Shown in pieces: positions 1,009 through 64,000 of a stretch of 64,000 nucleotides of DNA. This DNA is from a virus (taxonomy: Duplodnaviria; Heunggongvirae; Uroviricota; Caudoviricetes). Below the pieces are notes generated by a model, which was given only the letters and a program-made list of their open reading frames with translations, was not told the DNA's origin and did no database searches. The stretch's first letter is position 1. Each line of letters begins with the position of its first letter. Both the position numbers and the translations under genes were made by a program. The stretch is from the IMG/VR virus record IMGVR_UViG_2579778842_000017, positions 1 to 64,000 of that record. The stretch is one strand, 5' to 3'.

Positions 1009-1083
1009 GTCCTCTTAGTTAAATGGATATAACGAGCCCCTCCTAAGGGCTAATTGCAGGTTCGATTCCTGCAGGGGACACCA
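1009..1083 (+). tRNA. argW: tRNA-Arg (anticodon CCU), argW-type; prophage integration target
   Basis: 75-nt sequence GTCCTCTTAGTT...GGGGACACCA with 7-bp acceptor stem, anticodon loop CTCCTAA, TPsiC arm GGTTCGATTCC, 3' CCA; integrase gene follows. Confidence 0.9.
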
Positions 1084-4198: not shown

Positions 4199-5100
4199 TC
4201 AGTAGTTATGTACTGAAGGAGGTAATTCTTTATTCTTAAGTCTCATCCATGCGGAAAGATTCGTTGGTCCGTCTGGCTCATTGATATCAACATCTCGTGT
4301 GTGGTTTATTAAAACGTCTCTCGCCATTCCGATAACATACGAGAATTCATGACCGTAGTCGTAGCATCTGCCGGAATAGTTCGATTGAATTTGTTTTAGC
4401 GCCGGATACAGTTCGCGGAATAATGCCTGTGAGCGGTTGGCATAATCCCATAACCATACAAGGCTGTTTGCTTCTTTTGCAGAAAGCTCGTTGGTTTTCT
4501 TCTCTTGTTTGCCAATGAACTCACCTTCAAGCACTACCCTGTGGATGTACTCTACTGCTTGTGGTATCTGAGATGCATCAAGCTCTTCAATACTTTCCAC
4601 ATTGAAACGCTGATGAATCATTGCATAAGCTTCTGGGTACATTAGATGCTTTTTGCTGACTAGCATATTTACAGCATCACGAAGCGGAGTCCTGTCATCA
4701 ACAGATGTTTTCTTCCGTGCATTTGCTGCCTCTCCCTTTGTCCAGTAGTCATGCAGCACAGTAAAGCATTCTTCCTGGTACTGAATCAGTTTATCGCGGA
4801 TGTCAGCACGAACTTTCTCAGGGTTGATGCTGAACAGCCATCCATTTAACTTCTTCAAAGGAAGGCAGAGTAGCTTACGAAGCTTACCATCAGCGGCAAC
4901 CATGTTCATATGAACACAGTTGAATTTGCTAATCTGCTTCATGAGTTTTGTTTGCTGCGTTGACCAGCTCATTCCGAGGTTTTCAACGATTGGCTTCATC
5001 GCAACATATGCAACTCCGGCAGCCATGGCGGTGATAATTTGCTGACCGTTGAATGGCACGTAAGAGGTGTTCACTGCTTCTAAAATTGCTATACTATTCA
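4199..5100 (-). CDS. ant: Antirepressor Ant (immI region)
   Basis: P22 Ant-like sequence starting [21 protein letters not shown]; position arc-ant-tailspike as in P22; ORF track extends to a GTG at 5167. Confidence 0.8.
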
Positions 5101-5333
5101 TGTTGGTTTTTCTCCACGGATTTACCGACAACCGAAGCCCTGACTGTTCCAGCAGTTGGGGCTTCACTGTTTTGATTTCTTTGCCGCATCAAGCATCACT
5201 TCTGAAAACGTGCGCTTGCCACTGAATACTCTTTCTCTTCTCAATTTTTCGTTCGTGCCAAATGATTCGCCATGAACAAAATTTGGTCTTAAAATGGTAA
5301 TCGCAATCTCTTTGACTACTGCATCCAAGCGAA

Positions 5334-5486
5334 TCACACCGTTACCCCCTCTCTCTTCAGGCTGTCTATCAGGCGCTTGATAACCTCTGAGTTAAACGAC
5401 CTGCACTCTTCCTTTGCCCTGCTACCGATAGCATCCTTTAACGACTGCGGCATCCTTACCAAAATCTTACTTATTTCTTTCTCCAT
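5334..5486 (-). CDS. arc: Arc-like ribbon-helix-helix repressor
   Basis: about 50 aa from internal Met (MEKEISKILVRMPQSLKDAIGSRAKEECRSFNSEVIKRLIDSLKREG), aligns with P22 Arc (GRSVNSEI motif); immediately upstream of ant. Confidence 0.75.
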   Translation of the reverse strand: MEKEISKILVRMPQSLKDAIGSRAKEECRSFNSEVIKRLIDSLKREGVTV

Positions 5487-5600
5487 GTTACCCTCCACGC
5501 AAACAACTCTTTTCGAATACAAAAGATAGCAAAGTGAGTATATCTAGTCAAAATTTTTTTGCATACACTTTGATATCAAATTGAATACCAAAGGTGTGAT
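5487..5600. promoter_or_regulatory. Divergent Pant / Pmnt promoter-operator region
   Basis: AT-rich 114-bp gap between divergently oriented arc and mnt, the position of the overlapping Pant/Pmnt promoters and Mnt/Arc operators in P22. Confidence 0.45.
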
Positions 5601-5849
5601 ATGGCAAAGGGTGTGTCAATTTCTCCAACTACGGTAAGAATCCCTGAATCTTTGCGCGAGGCTCTTGCTGTTAGAGCATCAAAAAATGGTCGCTCTGTTA
5701 ACTCCGAGATCGTCATGATTTTGCAAGCCGCGATTGATGAAGATAGGTCGCCAAAGTCAGTTGAGTCATTTGCTCAGCAAGAAGCTGACAAATTCAAAGA
5801 GGCGCTGCTGGAGACGCTGAAAACCATGTATGGTAAGGATGATAAATAA
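5601..5849 (+). CDS. mnt: Mnt-like repressor
   Basis: 82 aa; TVRIPESLREALAVRASKNGRSVNSEIVMILQAAI aligns with P22 Mnt N-terminal RHH domain; C-terminal LKTMYGK resembles Mnt. Confidence 0.8.
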   Translation: MAKGVSISPTTVRIPESLREALAVRASKNGRSVNSEIVMILQAAIDEDRSPKSVESFAQQEADKFKEALLETLKTMYGKDDK

Positions 5850-6385
5850 TGCTGCACACAATTCATTTCTTATGCCCCGTTAACACCGCCACTGTTGGGC
5901 AACTTCAGAACCACTGTCTCACCGCATTATCTCAAGGCGCAACTGAATTAAATATCCATATATCAAGTCAGGGAGGGGAAACTGCCGCTGGCTTTACTGC
6001 GTATAACTTTCTTAAGTCACTCCCTGTTACCGTTAGAACTCACAACATAAGCAATGTTGAATCCATAGCTAATATCGTTTTCCTGGCTGGCTCAGAACGT
6101 TTCGCAAACCCATTATCAAGATTCCTGTTACATCCTCTATTATGGGGCTTTGCCACCCCAGCCGCCGACCATGCCAGATTGAGAGAGTACGGGAAATGCC
6201 TCGATAACGATCTTGATCGCTTCGTTGAGACGTTCAATATCGACATCGGAACCCATATTAGGTGGGCATCCCTGATAGCAGACTCGACCATTTTGGATGC
6301 TAACAAGGCTCTTGAGCATGGCATAATTAATTCCATAAAAACTGCAAGGCTGGTATCCAATCAGGCAAACTGGTGGGTTGTTTGA
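5849..6385 (+). CDS. ClpP-like (S14-family) serine peptidase, translationally coupled to mnt
   Basis: 178 aa; by-eye alignment to E. coli ClpP across the core (HISSQGGETAAGFTAYNFL / THNISNVESIANIVFLAGSERFANPLSRFLLHP / ILDANKALEHGIINSI) with Ser, His and Asp of the catalytic triad at aligned positions; ATG overlaps mnt stop (TAATG). Confidence 0.7.
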   Translation: MLHTIHFLCPVNTATVGQLQNHCLTALSQGATELNIHISSQGGETAAGFTAYNFLKSLPVTVRTHNISNVESIANIVFLAGSERFANPLSRFLLHPLLWGFATPAADHARLREYGKCLDNDLDRFVETFNIDIGTHIRWASLIADSTILDANKALEHGIINSIKTARLVSNQANWWVV

Positions 6386-6410
6386 TGGGTAAATCATGAT
6401 TACTCCTTAT

Positions 6411-6438
6411 AAAAAACCCACCTGACGGTGGGTTTTAT
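6411..6438. terminator. Bidirectional Rho-independent terminator between convergent operons
   Basis: AAAAAACCCACCTGACGGTGGGTTTTATT: GC hairpin flanked by A-run and T-run. Confidence 0.7.
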
Positions 6439-6860
6439 TAGTGCTTGTATAGCTTGAACTCCCTGTCGAGCCATAAGACATAAAAAGTGGCTCCTATCTT
6501 ATAACCAACCATAGGTGCCTTAGAGCAAAATCTGAACGCAATGAAATCCACATCTTGAGTAACATGCTTAGGAATCGGAGCTTTTATCGCGTTTCTGGCA
6601 ATTTTTTCCGTCCCAAGCCCGTGTTTATCAGATTTTCGTATCTCATCCCATGACATCCGACTTAACCTGAACAGCCTATCTGCAAATGCTGCCTTTTCAT
6701 GCTTTTGGCAGCAATCTAGGCAATACCCCTTTTGTAGGTATCTAAGAGAAAATACAGGCGGACTTTTGTCTACATCATGAGATTCGTGATGGATAGAGAG
6801 GCCAACAGTAGCAGAGCTCTCTTTATCCCTCTGTTTTATTCTTCCCTTAACTCTAGACAT
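6438..6860 (-). CDS. Hypothetical protein, downstream partner of the Panacea-domain gene (candidate toxin/effector)
   Basis: 140 aa, basic, Cys cluster CLDCC; starts 5 bp after the stop of the upstream DUF4065 gene; no family recognised. Confidence 0.55.
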   Translation of the reverse strand: MSRVKGRIKQRDKESSATVGLSIHHESHDVDKSPPVFSLRYLQKGYCLDCCQKHEKAAFADRLFRLSRMSWDEIRKSDKHGLGTEKIARNAIKAPIPKHVTQDVDFIAFRFCSKAPMVGYKIGATFYVLWLDREFKLYKH

Positions 6861-6865
6861 ACACG

Positions 6866-7315
6866 TCAGTTAATTAACGTTTTGAAAAAACCTTTCATAG
6901 AATCAAGTGTGATTTCTTGGCTAACCGCACCCTCAATGTAAGCATCTTTCCATGGCTGCTCTTCGTGAGTCATATTGCGCAGTTTCCAGGCAGAAAACTG
7001 ACCATAAACTTTATACACCTCATCCAGCAATTCAATTTCATCTTCACTGAATTTTTTAGCGTCAAAGTTTTCTGGCGCAGGTAAAGCTCCGTTACCACAG
7101 TCCCTATATTTACGATACAATTCAGGAACTACTGGCCCATGCATCCAGGCTTCAATTTTCTCATTAAATAGCGGCTTACCCAGAAGAACCAGAGAAAACC
7201 CTTGGGCATAATACGTCAACTTCTGAATTTTTAGGTTAGAGATAATGTCGCCACTTTCTTCATCGCAATGCGCCAAGAAGTAGTCGGCGACATCAAAACA
7301 AGTGAGCATAAACAT
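6866..7315 (-). CDS. Panacea (DUF4065, SocA/GepA-like) domain protein, candidate antitoxin
   Basis: 149 aa; KIQKLTYYAQGFSLVLLGKPLFNEKIEAWMHGPVVPELY matches the DUF4065 core motif as I recall it. Confidence 0.65.
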   Translation of the reverse strand: MFMLTCFDVADYFLAHCDEESGDIISNLKIQKLTYYAQGFSLVLLGKPLFNEKIEAWMHGPVVPELYRKYRDCGNGALPAPENFDAKKFSEDEIELLDEVYKVYGQFSAWKLRNMTHEEQPWKDAYIEGAVSQEITLDSMKGFFKTLIN

Positions 7316-44943: not shown

Positions 44944-45020
44944 TGGCGTGGCATGCAGGATTCGAACCTGCGACCAACCGCTTAGAAGGCGGTTGCTCTG
45001 TCCGACTGAGCTAATGCCAC
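44944..45020 (-). tRNA. Phage-borne tRNA-Arg (anticodon UCU)
   Basis: minus strand reads GTGGCATTAGCTCAGTCGGACAGAGCAACCGCCTTCTAAGCGGTTGGTCGCAGGTTCGAATCCTGCATGCCACGCCA: 7-bp acceptor stem, anticodon loop CTTCTAA, 3' CCA. Confidence 0.8.
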
Positions 45021-63598: not shown

Positions 63599-64000
63599 TT
63601 AGTGATTTTAATCACCACCGCAACGCCAATTACTGGTGGTGAACTGGACAAGGTTGGCGTACCGGCCTAAGTGGTACCGGCGTCCTTTCGGACCCCTGCC
63701 CAGCCCACCATAATTCGGATATGGCTGTGCTTAACGCATAAAAAAACCACGTCTGGCGTGGTATGCGCCACTTAGTAACTCGGGACGCCAATCCCGGCAC
63801 TGGATTTTTCCAGTGCCCGATTACTATGGCACAAGAGGAGTGCGATGTAAATTTACCGCAAAGGTAAATATAAGCACTCCACTTGGTAATTGCAAACCTT
63901 ATCTGGTTTGTTTTCGTAATTGTTCGGCACAATAGTCGAGATGTGTTTGCAGATCCCGCATAGACATCTGTGAGCTGGTGACGTAGTTAATCAGTGCAGT

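What the first reader, a model, noticed from the sequence alone, without database searches (positions are those of the whole stretch)
5601..6385. ClpP-like serine peptidase co-transcribed with the Mnt maintenance repressor
The gene after mnt encodes a protein that aligns by eye across the whole ClpP core, with Ser, His and Asp at the catalytic positions, and its ATG overlaps the mnt stop. This is not a P22 immI gene as far as I know. A ClpP-family protease expressed with the lysogeny-maintenance repressor could be a new superinfection-exclusion or anti-antirepressor function (for example degrading incoming Ant or injected proteins).
Basis: partly seen in the sequence, partly recalled or inferred. 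Interest (0 to 1): 0.7.

Follow-up and report, generated by a model that had tools for sequence, protein, structure and literature searches.

The report
Prophage gate-less ClpP-like peptidase after mnt
A P22-like prophage of E. coli carries, in the same operon as its Mnt maintenance repressor, a shortened ClpP-type peptidase with no entry gate and no docking sites for the usual unfolding motors. It belongs to a family of lysogen-expressed cargo genes found in many temperate phages, and its role in phage biology has not been studied.

Summary
Window 5601-5849 encodes a Mnt orthologue. Window 5849-6385 encodes a 178-aa ClpP-fold protein whose ATG overlaps the mnt stop (TAATG). Ser72 and His95 are invariant. 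The canonical Asp column holds Ser146 (Ala/Ser/Gly/Thr in relatives), and the neighbouring Asp145 is not conserved.

The protein starts at strand beta1, so it lacks ClpP's N-terminal gate. The pocket where ClpX/ClpA loops dock is polar.

Its closest characterised relative is Pseudomonas plecoglossicida ClpP1 (PDB 9UXT; model TM 0.94). That protein is a wide-pore 14-mer and a weak Ser/His peptidase. It does not bind ClpX and co-assembles with the canonical ClpP.

The gene plus its terminator is a ~600-bp mosaic module. It is ≥99% identical in 127 of 5426 complete E. coli genomes. It is joined in register to mnt alleles only 35-100% identical, in both P22-like and lambda-like phages.

Relatives at 50-75% identity have no mnt. 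They sit alone, antisense to lytic operons, at four other prophage positions. The function is therefore lysogen-expressed but not specific to immI. The GenBank label 'head maturation protease' is wrong.

Most likely it is an accessory, chaperone-independent ClpP isoform that acts alone or with host ClpP. An exclusion role is untested.

The parts
5523..5600 (.). Divergent immI control region between arc and mnt (expected Pant/Pmnt and operators)
   Evidence: It has the same position as P22's annotated Pant/Pmnt/Oarc/Omnt. A promoter-like TTGACT-17-TATCTT lies on the minus strand at 5551-5523. Inverted repeats lie at 5557-5592 and at 5525-5536/5566-5577. No plus-strand promoter passed the strict consensus scan, so Pmnt is inferred from position only.
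5601..5849 (+). mnt orthologue (82-aa ribbon-helix-helix maintenance repressor)
   Evidence: Pfam Arc 9.6e-11. 36% identity to P22 Mnt over the whole length. RefSeq label is 'Arc family DNA-binding protein'.
5836..5851 (+). AAGGA ribosome-binding site and TAATG stop/start overlap that couple mnt to the ClpP-like gene
   Evidence: Read directly from the sequence. The same in-register joint is kept in all mnt-linked loci.
5849..6385 (+). 178-aa N-terminally short ClpP-family peptidase (PpClpP1 type). Ser72 is at 6062-6064 and His95 at 6131-6133. Ser146 at 6284-6286 occupies the canonical Asp position.
   Evidence: dN/dS is 0.077 against the Pectobacterium orthologue.
6413..6436 (.). Bidirectional intrinsic terminator: a 10-bp stem AAAACCCACC/GGUGGGUUUU with loop UGAC, U-rich on both strands (run broken by one A on the plus strand)
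   Evidence: RNA folds of -18.5 and -19.7 kcal/mol, z -2.8 and -4.0. The matching 57 bp in phage Emek lies under features that include an annotated terminator. The right edge of the mobile module falls at 6407-6440. The pattern scan missed it.
5768..6440 (+). Extent of the conserved mosaic module (mnt 3' end, ClpP-like gene and terminator)
   Evidence: In 38 loci the left ends of ≥96% nucleotide identity cluster at 5768, 5811 and 5829, and the 77%-identical Pectobacterium alignments start at 5817. Right ends cluster at 6407-6440.
5334..5486 (-). arc (context: rest of the immI module)
   Evidence: Pfam Arc 9.6e-12. 35% identity to P22 Arc. Annotated 'Arc protein' in MN340231.
5102..5168 (+). 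sar antisense RNA (context)
   Evidence: Rfam RF00262, 83.9 bits, E 3.8e-16.
4199..5101 (-). ant antirepressor (context)
   Evidence: Pfam P22_AR_N 5e-45 and P22_AR_C 6.7e-30. The 5' end is taken from the 903-nt CDS (labelled 'hypothetical protein') at this position in MN340231.

Best explanation
The gene is a prophage cargo gene ('moron') that is expressed in the lysogen. In this prophage it is transcribed from the mnt promoter, translationally coupled to mnt, and ended by its own bidirectional terminator.

Its product is a short ClpP-family peptidase of the type solved for Pseudomonas plecoglossicida ClpP1. It has a ClpP core with a handle helix, a Ser-His catalytic pair without the usual Asp, no N-terminal gate, and no hydrophobic docking site for ClpX/ClpA.

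By analogy with that relative, it most likely assembles into ClpP-like heptamer rings and 14-mers with an open pore. It would have weak chaperone-independent peptidase activity, cannot recruit an unfoldase itself, and probably stacks onto or mixes with the host's single ClpP. That would change what ClpXP/ClpAP degrade in the lysogen.

The link to Mnt is a way of obtaining lysogen-specific expression, not a functional dependence on immI.

Shown here: the fold, the residue pattern, the operon structure, the modular mobility, purifying selection, and the antisense 'moron' placement of relatives.

Inferred: the oligomeric state, the activity, the interaction with host ClpP, and the benefit to phage or host.
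For: Fold and family:
- Pfam CLP_protease passes its cutoff.
- 9UXT matches at E 4.6e-35.
- The model has pLDDT 94.5, TM 0.94 and rmsd 1.5 A to 9uxt_A, and TM about 0.83 to E. coli ClpP.

Residue pattern:
- Ser72, His95 and the oxyanion Gly43 are invariant.
- The Asp column is Ala/Ser/Gly/Thr.
- E. coli pocket residues Y60, Y62, F82, I90 and L114 become N35, H37, S57, H65 and N87, and these replacements are conserved in the family.
- E. coli ClpP residues 1-24 have no counterpart.

Properties of the solved relative (PMC12900304):
- homo-14-mer with a 42.7 A pore;
- Ser and His essential, third residue dispensable;
- about 13-fold lower peptidase activity than the canonical paralogue;
- no ClpX binding;
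- stable hetero-14-mer with the canonical ClpP, with higher activity.

General ClpP rules: the N-terminal loops gate the pore and IGF loops dock at H sites (PMC9035409).

Operon: TAATG overlap and AAGGA site, and a terminator.

Functional protein: dN/dS 0.077 at dS 1.6.

Cargo behaviour:
- 128 of 5426 complete E. coli genomes carry it, 127 at ≥99% identity.
- It is joined to mnt alleles 35-100% identical, with breakpoints at 5768, 5811 and 5829 on the left and 6407-6440 on the right.
- The same mnt allele occurs with and without it.
- It also occurs in lambda-like phages between tail genes K and L.

Relatives without mnt lie antisense to lytic genes at:
- the lysis/terminase joint;
- the tape-measure/baseplate joint;
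- the tail-fibre end;
- between N and the recombination genes.
Against: - No experiment exists on any phage-borne member.
- Identity to PpClpP1 is only about 38-40%.
- The PpClpP1 clade is a chromosomal gene next to KGG stress genes, not a phage gene, so its biology may not transfer.
- The ring-ring 'oligomerisation sensor' residues of ClpP (E169-R170 in E. coli) are A144-D145 here.
- Hetero-assembly with E. coli ClpP was not and could not be modelled.
- No sigma-70 consensus promoter was found for mnt or for the solo relatives, so lysogenic expression is inferred from position and orientation only.
- Nothing found indicates what advantage the gene gives.
Confidence: 0.55

Rival explanations
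1. Superinfection-exclusion or defence protease. The open-pore peptidase made in the lysogen destroys unfolded incoming phage proteins, such as ejection proteins or newly made Ant from a heteroimmune phage. This would block infection or block induction of the resident prophage.
For: - It is expressed with the immunity function mnt.
- It sits in the slot next to where P22 keeps sieA and where this phage and others keep toxin-antitoxin pairs.
- Relatives occupy classic lysogen-expressed moron sites, including next to the N/immunity region.
- A gate-less pore could admit unstructured polypeptides (PMC12900304; PMC9035409).
Against: - No match to any PADLOC defence model.
- No defence partner gene recurs.
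- An Ant-specific role conflicts with solo relatives that have no mnt or ant within 4 kb, and with pairing to unrelated antirepressor types (P22_AR and Bro-N).
- The solved relative has low peptidase activity and no way of unfolding or selecting substrates.
Confidence: 0.15
2. Decoy or inhibitory subunit. The protein mixes with host ClpP rings and removes ClpX/ClpA docking sites. Host Clp proteolysis is damped, which would stabilise phage regulators or antitoxins or restrain induction. This resembles in spirit the reported anti-ClpP action of lambda RexB (recalled from memory, not checked here).
For: - Docking-pocket residues are replaced by polar ones and the N-terminal loops are absent.
- The relative does not bind ClpX.
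- The catalytic Asp is lost.
- Toxin-antitoxin pairs lie next to it in several prophages.
Against: - In the only tested relative, hetero-assembly raised ClpXP activity rather than lowering it.
- Ser, His and the oxyanion Gly are strictly conserved under strong purifying selection. That argues for retained catalysis rather than a pure decoy.
Confidence: 0.15
3. A two-gene toxin-antitoxin-like pair in which the ribbon-helix-helix protein neutralises or represses a harmful protease.
For: A small RHH gene with an overlapping downstream gene is the usual layout of type II toxin-antitoxin operons. Pfam also gives FitA-like RHH at 2.1e-08 for the upstream protein.
Against: - The RHH protein is a full-length Mnt orthologue inside a complete ant-sar-arc-mnt module.
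- One ClpP-like allele is joined to mnt alleles down to 35% identity.
- mnt occurs without it.
- Most relatives are solo genes.
- Phage E212 keeps the gene after losing mnt.
Confidence: 0.03
4. A head maturation (prohead) protease, as annotated in GenBank MN340231, or a decaying remnant of one.
For: The best PHROG is phrog_94 'head maturation protease' at 5e-21. NCBIfam Clp_rel_HeadMat scores 49.7 bits.
Against: - The score is far below that model's cutoff of 120.
- There is no C-terminal scaffold or targeting part, only 178 aa.
- The gene lies in immI on the strand opposite to the head genes.
- This prophage has a P22-type portal, scaffold and coat module with no protease slot.
- dN/dS of 0.077 excludes decay.
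Confidence: 0.02

Closest known systems
Pseudomonas plecoglossicida ClpP1 (PDB 9UXT; PMC12900304)
   Same: - Similar length (178 aa here, 183 aa there); both start at strand beta1 with no axial loops.
- Ser and His are conserved and the canonical Asp position holds a non-acidic residue (Pro there, Ser here).
- Both have a polar docking pocket.
- The model superposes at TM 0.94, rmsd 1.5 A; sequence E 4.6e-35.
   Different: - Only 38-40% identical.
- The Pseudomonas clade is a vertically inherited chromosomal gene beside KGG stress-protein genes.
- This clade is carried by temperate phages and here is fused to the mnt operon.
- Enterobacterial members have a conserved C-terminal NWWV strand.
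Canonical ClpP (peptidase family S14; E. coli ClpP)
   Same: - Same fold, including the handle helix (TM about 0.83).
- The catalytic Ser, His and oxyanion Gly align.
   Different: - About 21% identity.
- No propeptide and no N-terminal gate.
- Asp171 is replaced.
- H-site residues are replaced by Asn/His/Ser.
- TIGR00493 scores 22 bits against a cutoff of 308.6.
Atypical second ClpP isoforms that work only with a canonical partner (Listeria ClpP1, P. aeruginosa ClpP2, Mycobacterium ClpP1P2)
   Same: They have altered triads or N-termini and act through hetero-14-mers in which only the canonical ring binds the unfoldase (as summarised in PMC12900304). 4ryf and 4u0g are among the fold hits.
   Different: Those are chromosomal paralogues of normal length. 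No hetero-complex has been shown for this protein. E. coli has a single ClpP (my own knowledge, not checked here), so the partner isoform would be supplied by a prophage.
ClpP-related phage prohead proteases (phrog_94; NCBIfam NF045542)
   Same: They have a ClpP-like core without an N-terminal gate and are phage-encoded. They are the best PHROG match (5e-21).
   Different: Those lie in the head-gene cluster and carry a C-terminal scaffold or targeting part. This gene is 178 aa, lies in immI on the other strand, and scores below the model cutoff.
Other cargo in the P22 mnt/gene-16 interval (orf59a after mnt; sieA)
   Same: Same slot and same lysogen-expressed logic. In P22, mnt is followed by orf59a and a terminator, then sieA with its own promoter.
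   Different: The sequences are unrelated. orf59a and SieA are not proteases.

Membership tests
ClpP/crotonase-fold peptidase, Pfam CLP_protease (MEROPS S14 in the broad sense) | Profile match above the curated cutoff, and a ClpP fold with a handle helix | tested here: met
   46.7 bits against a cutoff of 20.2, profile positions 37-180 of 182. Model pLDDT 94.5 with helix 108-132. TM 0.83-0.94 to solved ClpPs.
ClpP/crotonase-fold peptidase, Pfam CLP_protease (MEROPS S14 in the broad sense) | Catalytic Ser and His plus the oxyanion-hole Gly | tested here: met
   S72, H95 and G43 align with E. coli S97, H122 and G68 and are invariant in 62 sequences.
Canonical ATP-dependent ClpP proteolytic subunit (the RefSeq product name) | Third triad residue Asp (E. 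coli D171) | tested here: not met
   The column holds Ser146; the family reads A35/S21/G4/T2. The adjacent D145 is not conserved.
Canonical ATP-dependent ClpP proteolytic subunit (the RefSeq product name) | N-terminal axial loops that gate the pore and contact the unfoldase | tested here: not met
   The protein begins at the residue aligned with E. coli K25. E. coli residues 1-24 have no counterpart. Pfam positions 1-36 are unmatched.
Canonical ATP-dependent ClpP proteolytic subunit (the RefSeq product name) | Hydrophobic H site for IGF/LGF loops of ClpX/ClpA | tested here: not met
   Y60, Y62, F82, I90 and L114 become N35, H37, S57, H65 and N87, conserved in the family. This is a sequence-level test only. 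The relative does not bind ClpX.
Canonical ATP-dependent ClpP proteolytic subunit (the RefSeq product name) | Equivalog model score | tested here: not met
   TIGR00493 scores 22 bits against a cutoff of 308.6. The PRK models score 27-41 bits against cutoffs of 228-361.
PpClpP1-type short ClpP | About 180 aa, starts at beta1, Ser-His with a non-acidic third position, and a close structural match | tested here: met
PpClpP1-type short ClpP | Homo-14-mer with a wide pore; hetero-14-mer with the canonical ClpP; Ser/His-dependent weak peptidase | not testable with these tools
   Only a monomer could be modelled.
ClpP-related head maturation protease | Model score above cutoff; location in the head module; C-terminal scaffold or targeting region | tested here: not met
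   NF045542 scores 49.7 bits against a cutoff of 120. The gene is in immI. The head module has portal, scaffold and coat genes without a protease. The protein ends at residue 178.
P22-type immI module (ant, sar, arc, mnt) | All four parts in the P22 arrangement | tested here: met
   The ClpP-like gene is an addition, since P22 has orf59a there.
Known anti-phage defence systems (PADLOC-DB v2) | Match to any defence protein model | tested here: not met
   No hit for the ClpP-like protein or for Mnt.
Type II toxin-antitoxin pair | Obligate pairing of the two genes | tested here: not met
   Relatives occur alone. mnt occurs without the gene. The gene occurs without mnt in phage E212.

The most novel reading that the evidence does not exclude
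Temperate phages of Enterobacterales carry their own second ClpP isoform as lysogen-expressed cargo. It is gate-less and cannot bind an unfoldase. It stacks onto the host's single ClpP to make a hybrid protease, and so reprogrammes host ClpXP/ClpAP proteolysis in lysogens. The outcome would be a measurable phage phenotype, such as altered prophage induction, stabilised regulators or antitoxins, or exclusion of incoming phages. That would be a new class of prophage 'proteostasis' gene. It would also suggest that the Pseudomonas 'ClpP1' paralogue belongs to the same once-mobile lineage.
Probability: 0.25. Interest if true: 0.75.

Novelty: new variant of a known kind. Interest (0 to 1): 0.5.

Why it matters
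ClpXP and ClpAP decide the fate of many phage and host regulators, so a phage-supplied ClpP subunit made in lysogens would give prophages a direct handle on host proteolysis.

The gene is not rare. It is in 128 of 5426 complete E. coli genomes, including the type strain ATCC 11775 and APEC/ExPEC strains.

It is routinely mislabelled, as a housekeeping 'ATP-dependent Clp protease proteolytic subunit' in RefSeq and as 'head maturation protease' in GenBank.

No study of it was found.

A solved structure of a 38-40% identical relative now exists. Simple experiments are therefore well defined: assembly with E. coli ClpP, S72A/H95A mutants, and deletion in a lysogen.

The gene also marks the position after mnt as a cargo slot in P22-like immI regions.

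Tried and rejected
- **Defence models.** PADLOC gave no hit for the protein, for Mnt, or for same-strand neighbours of relatives.
- **Literature.** Searches for ClpP-like prophage defence genes, immI/mnt plus Clp protease, the RefSeq protein accession, and prophage-encoded ClpP found nothing on this gene. The PhiR12 search was uninformative. Papers on phiv205-1 concern biofilm and adhesion of the whole prophage.
- **Is the solved relative itself phage-borne?** No. It lies in a chromosomal stress-gene neighbourhood in Pseudomonas, and a Massilia relative is also chromosomal.
- **A conserved partner gene.** None was found. The 182-aa upstream ORF in one E. coli subgroup is phrog_5483 of unknown function, with no Pfam or PADLOC match.
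- **Promoters.** The strict sigma-70 scan found no plus-strand promoter for mnt and none upstream of three solo relatives.
- **Terminator.** The pattern scan missed the hairpin at 6413-6436, which folding then confirmed.
- **Triad geometry and oligomer modelling.** These were not possible.
- **Readings considered and rejected.** The toxin-antitoxin and prohead-protease readings are covered under the rivals.
- **Origin of the clade.** Sequence scores do not decide between descent from cellular ClpP and descent from ClpP-like prohead proteases.
Full report
**What is at the coordinates**

The interval 5601-6385 holds two plus-strand ORFs.

The first, 5601-5849, encodes an 82-aa ribbon-helix-helix protein.
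- Pfam Arc gives 9.6e-11.
- It is 36% identical to P22 Mnt over its whole length, E 8e-14.
- It lies divergent from an Arc orthologue, a strong sar antisense RNA match at 5102-5168 (Rfam, 83.9 bits) and a P22-type antirepressor.
- This is therefore a complete, heteroimmune immI module of a P22-like prophage.

The prophage context is clear.
- An integrase sits next to tRNA-Arg(cct) at 1009-2393.
- P22-type ejection genes and a terminase, portal, scaffold and coat module follow.
- The region is 100% identical to phage phiv205-1 (genus Lederbergvirus) and to the chromosome of APEC IMT5155.

The second ORF, 5849-6385, starts with an ATG that shares its A with the mnt stop (TAATG). An AAGGA ribosome-binding site lies eight bases upstream. 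Twenty-seven bases after its stop, a 10-bp GC-rich hairpin is U-rich on both strands, the plus-strand run being broken by one A (6413-6436). It folds at -18.5 and -19.7 kcal/mol, z -2.8 and -4.0. The matching sequence in phage Emek lies under features that include an annotated terminator. The layout is thus mnt, the ClpP-like gene, then a terminator, convergent with a toxin-antitoxin pair.

**Is it really ClpP-like?**

Yes, and far beyond chance.
- Pfam CLP_protease matches positions 37-180 of 182, at 46.7 bits against a cutoff of 20.2.
- A search of solved structures gives E 4.6e-35 to 9UXT and about 1e-8 to mycobacterial ClpP1.
- An AlphaFold model built on 62 relatives has mean pLDDT 94.5 and shows the long handle helix at 108-132.
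- The model superposes on 9uxt_A at TM 0.94 and rmsd 1.5 A, and on E. coli ClpP at TM about 0.83.

- Ser72 and His95 align with the catalytic Ser97 and His122 of E. coli ClpP. Both are invariant, as is the oxyanion Gly43.
- The column of the catalytic Asp171 holds Ser146. Across 62 relatives it reads Ala 35, Ser 21, Gly 4, Thr 2.

Two further hallmarks of a working ClpXP/ClpAP core are missing.
- The protein begins at the residue aligned with E. coli Lys25, so the whole N-terminal gate is absent.
- The hydrophobic site where IGF loops dock (Y60, Y62, F82, I90, L114) is replaced by Asn35, His37, Ser57, His65 and Asn87. These replacements are conserved in the family.
- The roles of these features are taken from the review PMC9035409.
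- NCBIfam's ClpP equivalog model scores 22 bits against a cutoff of 308.6.

**The closest characterised relative**

9UXT is 'ClpP1' of Pseudomonas plecoglossicida (PMC12900304). The paper reports the following:
- a truncated N-terminus and a Ser-His-Pro 'triad' in which Ser and His are essential but the third residue is not;
- a homo-14-mer with a 42.7 A pore;
- about 13-fold lower peptidase activity than the canonical paralogue;
- no binding to ClpX;
- a stable hetero-14-mer with the canonical ClpP that is more active and supports faster ClpX-driven degradation.

The window protein shares every sequence-level feature of this type.

I checked whether that Pseudomonas gene is itself phage-borne. 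It is not. It is conserved across Pseudomonas and Azotobacter and lies among KGG stress-protein genes. A Massilia relative is also chromosomal.

An exhaustive search of 1.84 billion cluster representatives found 525 clusters at E ≤ 1e-10. Many of the 150 best listed are 180-190 aa long.

**How the gene behaves in genomes**

The gene is a discrete mobile module.
- 128 of 5426 complete E. coli genomes carry it. All copies are chromosomal, with up to three per genome, and 127 are ≥99% identical.
- RefSeq calls it 'ATP-dependent Clp protease proteolytic subunit'.
- Across 38 loci, nucleotide identity to the window begins at 5768, 5811, 5817 or 5829, all inside the last 80 bases of mnt. It ends at 6407-6440, at the terminator.

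Upstream, the same ≥98% allele follows mnt alleles that are 100, 64, 56, 45-47 and 35-36% identical to this one. The joint is always in the same register.

Other variations on the arrangement:
- The same mnt allele occurs with the gene (type strain ATCC 11775) and without it.
- The whole ant-mnt-ClpP-like block also sits between tail genes K and L of lambda-like phages.
- A 79%-identical orthologue follows mnt in Pectobacterium P22-like prophages. dN/dS is 0.077 at dS 1.6, which is strong purifying selection.
- Phage E212 has lost arc and mnt but keeps the gene. A few copies are broken.
- P22 itself has orf59a and a terminator after mnt, so this position is a cargo slot.

Relatives at 50-75% identity have no mnt and no ant within 4 kb. 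They are single genes, antisense to the surrounding lytic genes, at four other positions:
- between the lysis cassette and small terminase in Klebsiella-type lambdoid prophages;
- between the tape measure and the baseplate/gpU-like genes of myovirus-type tails;
- at the tail-fibre or tail-fibre-assembly end;
- between N and the recombination genes, next to the immunity region, in Proteus prophages.

One of the three solo loci scanned has a same-strand terminator just after the stop, and the other two have hairpins there on the opposite strand only. This is the signature of a lysogen-expressed moron. No partner gene recurs.

Only 6 of 50,697 deposited phage genomes carry a close copy. The gene is mainly seen in prophages.

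**Most likely mechanism**

Shown here:
- a ClpP-fold protein with a conserved Ser-His pair under selection;
- no gate and no unfoldase docking site;
- translational coupling to a lysogen-expressed repressor gene;
- membership of a family of phage cargo genes.

Inferred from the solved relative and from general ClpP knowledge:
- it forms ClpP-like rings with an open pore;
- it has modest chaperone-independent peptidase activity;
- it cannot recruit ClpX or ClpA;
- it is likely to stack on or mix with the host's single ClpP, so that lysogens carry a hybrid Clp core with altered output.

I give this reading 0.55.

The pairing with many mnt alleles, and the solo relatives, indicate that Mnt provides lysogen-specific expression rather than a functional partner.

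**Rivals**

- **Exclusion or anti-Ant protease (0.15).** This fits the location and the expression. It lacks any defence-model match, and an immI-specific version conflicts with the solo relatives.
- **Inhibitory decoy (0.15).** This fits the lost docking features. It is opposed by strict conservation of the catalytic residues and by the activating effect seen in the relative.
- **Toxin-antitoxin pair (0.03) and true or decayed prohead protease (0.02).** Both are contradicted by unpairing, by gene position, by model cutoffs and by selection.

**Novelty and limits**

The protein kind is known, and one relative was solved in 2026. The phage-borne clade, its fusion to the mnt operon, its modular spread and its moron behaviour are, as far as the searched literature shows, undescribed.

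I rate it a new variant of a known kind, with interest 0.5.

Not tested:
- oligomeric state;
- activity;
- interaction with E. coli ClpP;
- actual transcription in lysogens;
- any phenotype.

Noticed in passing
window 6438-6860(-) and 6866-7315(-): A convergent two-gene pair sits in the slot where P22 has sieA. One gene is a SocA/Panacea-domain antitoxin-like protein (Pfam 2.2e-24). The other is a 140-aa protein of phrog_8366 with weak matches to NsnC (PADLOC) and the MAG6450 family. Other prophages carry a YafO toxin pair in the same slot.
   Followed up: partly
window 5102-5168(+) and 5164-5337(-): There is a strong sar antisense RNA match (83.9 bits). An extra 56-aa ORF (phrog_17642, unknown function) lies between arc and ant and is absent from P22.
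   Followed up: partly
L055, L060-L063, L065, L067, L069, about 70-90 nt upstream of the ClpP-like ATG: Solo relatives in the myovirus tail context share a conserved 15-bp palindrome, CTGATCAAAYATCAG. It looks like an operator. The spacing is CTG-N9-CAG, so it is not a standard LexA box.
   Followed up: no
GenBank MN340231 (L001 6550-7086); P22 RefSeq NC_002371 mnt (L094 3520-3771): These look like annotation-transfer errors. The ClpP-like gene is labelled 'head maturation protease'. P22 mnt and its PHROG (phrog_2685) are labelled 'partition protein ATPase'.
   Followed up: partly
L047 2619-2807 and 4001-4351; L046; L058; L003 (phage E212): Some copies are damaged or rearranged. In L047 the gene is split by about 1.2 kb of inserted DNA. 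L046 and L058 hold only residues 56-178. Phage E212 lacks arc and mnt and most of ant but keeps an intact, unannotated ClpP-like gene.
   Followed up: partly
L002 (phage PhiR12_1) 3606-5618; L021-L025, L031: A whole immI-like block (antirepressor, small ORF, mnt, ClpP-like gene) is inserted between tail genes L and K of lambda-like phages.
   Followed up: partly
window 1009-1083, 1209-2393, 44944-45020, 63632-63816: tRNA-Arg(cct) next to the integrase marks one prophage end. A second tRNA-Arg(tct) lies at 44.9 kb. C4 antisense RNA and isrK matches near 63.7 kb suggest another mobile element at the far end of the window.
   Followed up: no
L070-L076, 3374-3922 (+): In one E. coli subgroup, with a 186-aa relative at 52% identity, a 182-aa same-strand ORF of unknown function (phrog_5483) directly precedes the ClpP-like gene. 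An HNH endonuclease gene lies nearby.
   Followed up: partly
L090-L093, 5001-5552 and flanks: The Pseudomonas 'ClpP1' clade sits next to KGG-repeat stress-protein genes and a DUF6555 gene in P. putida-group and P. fluorescens-group genomes. This hints at a stress-regulon role that the structural paper did not discuss.
   Followed up: no
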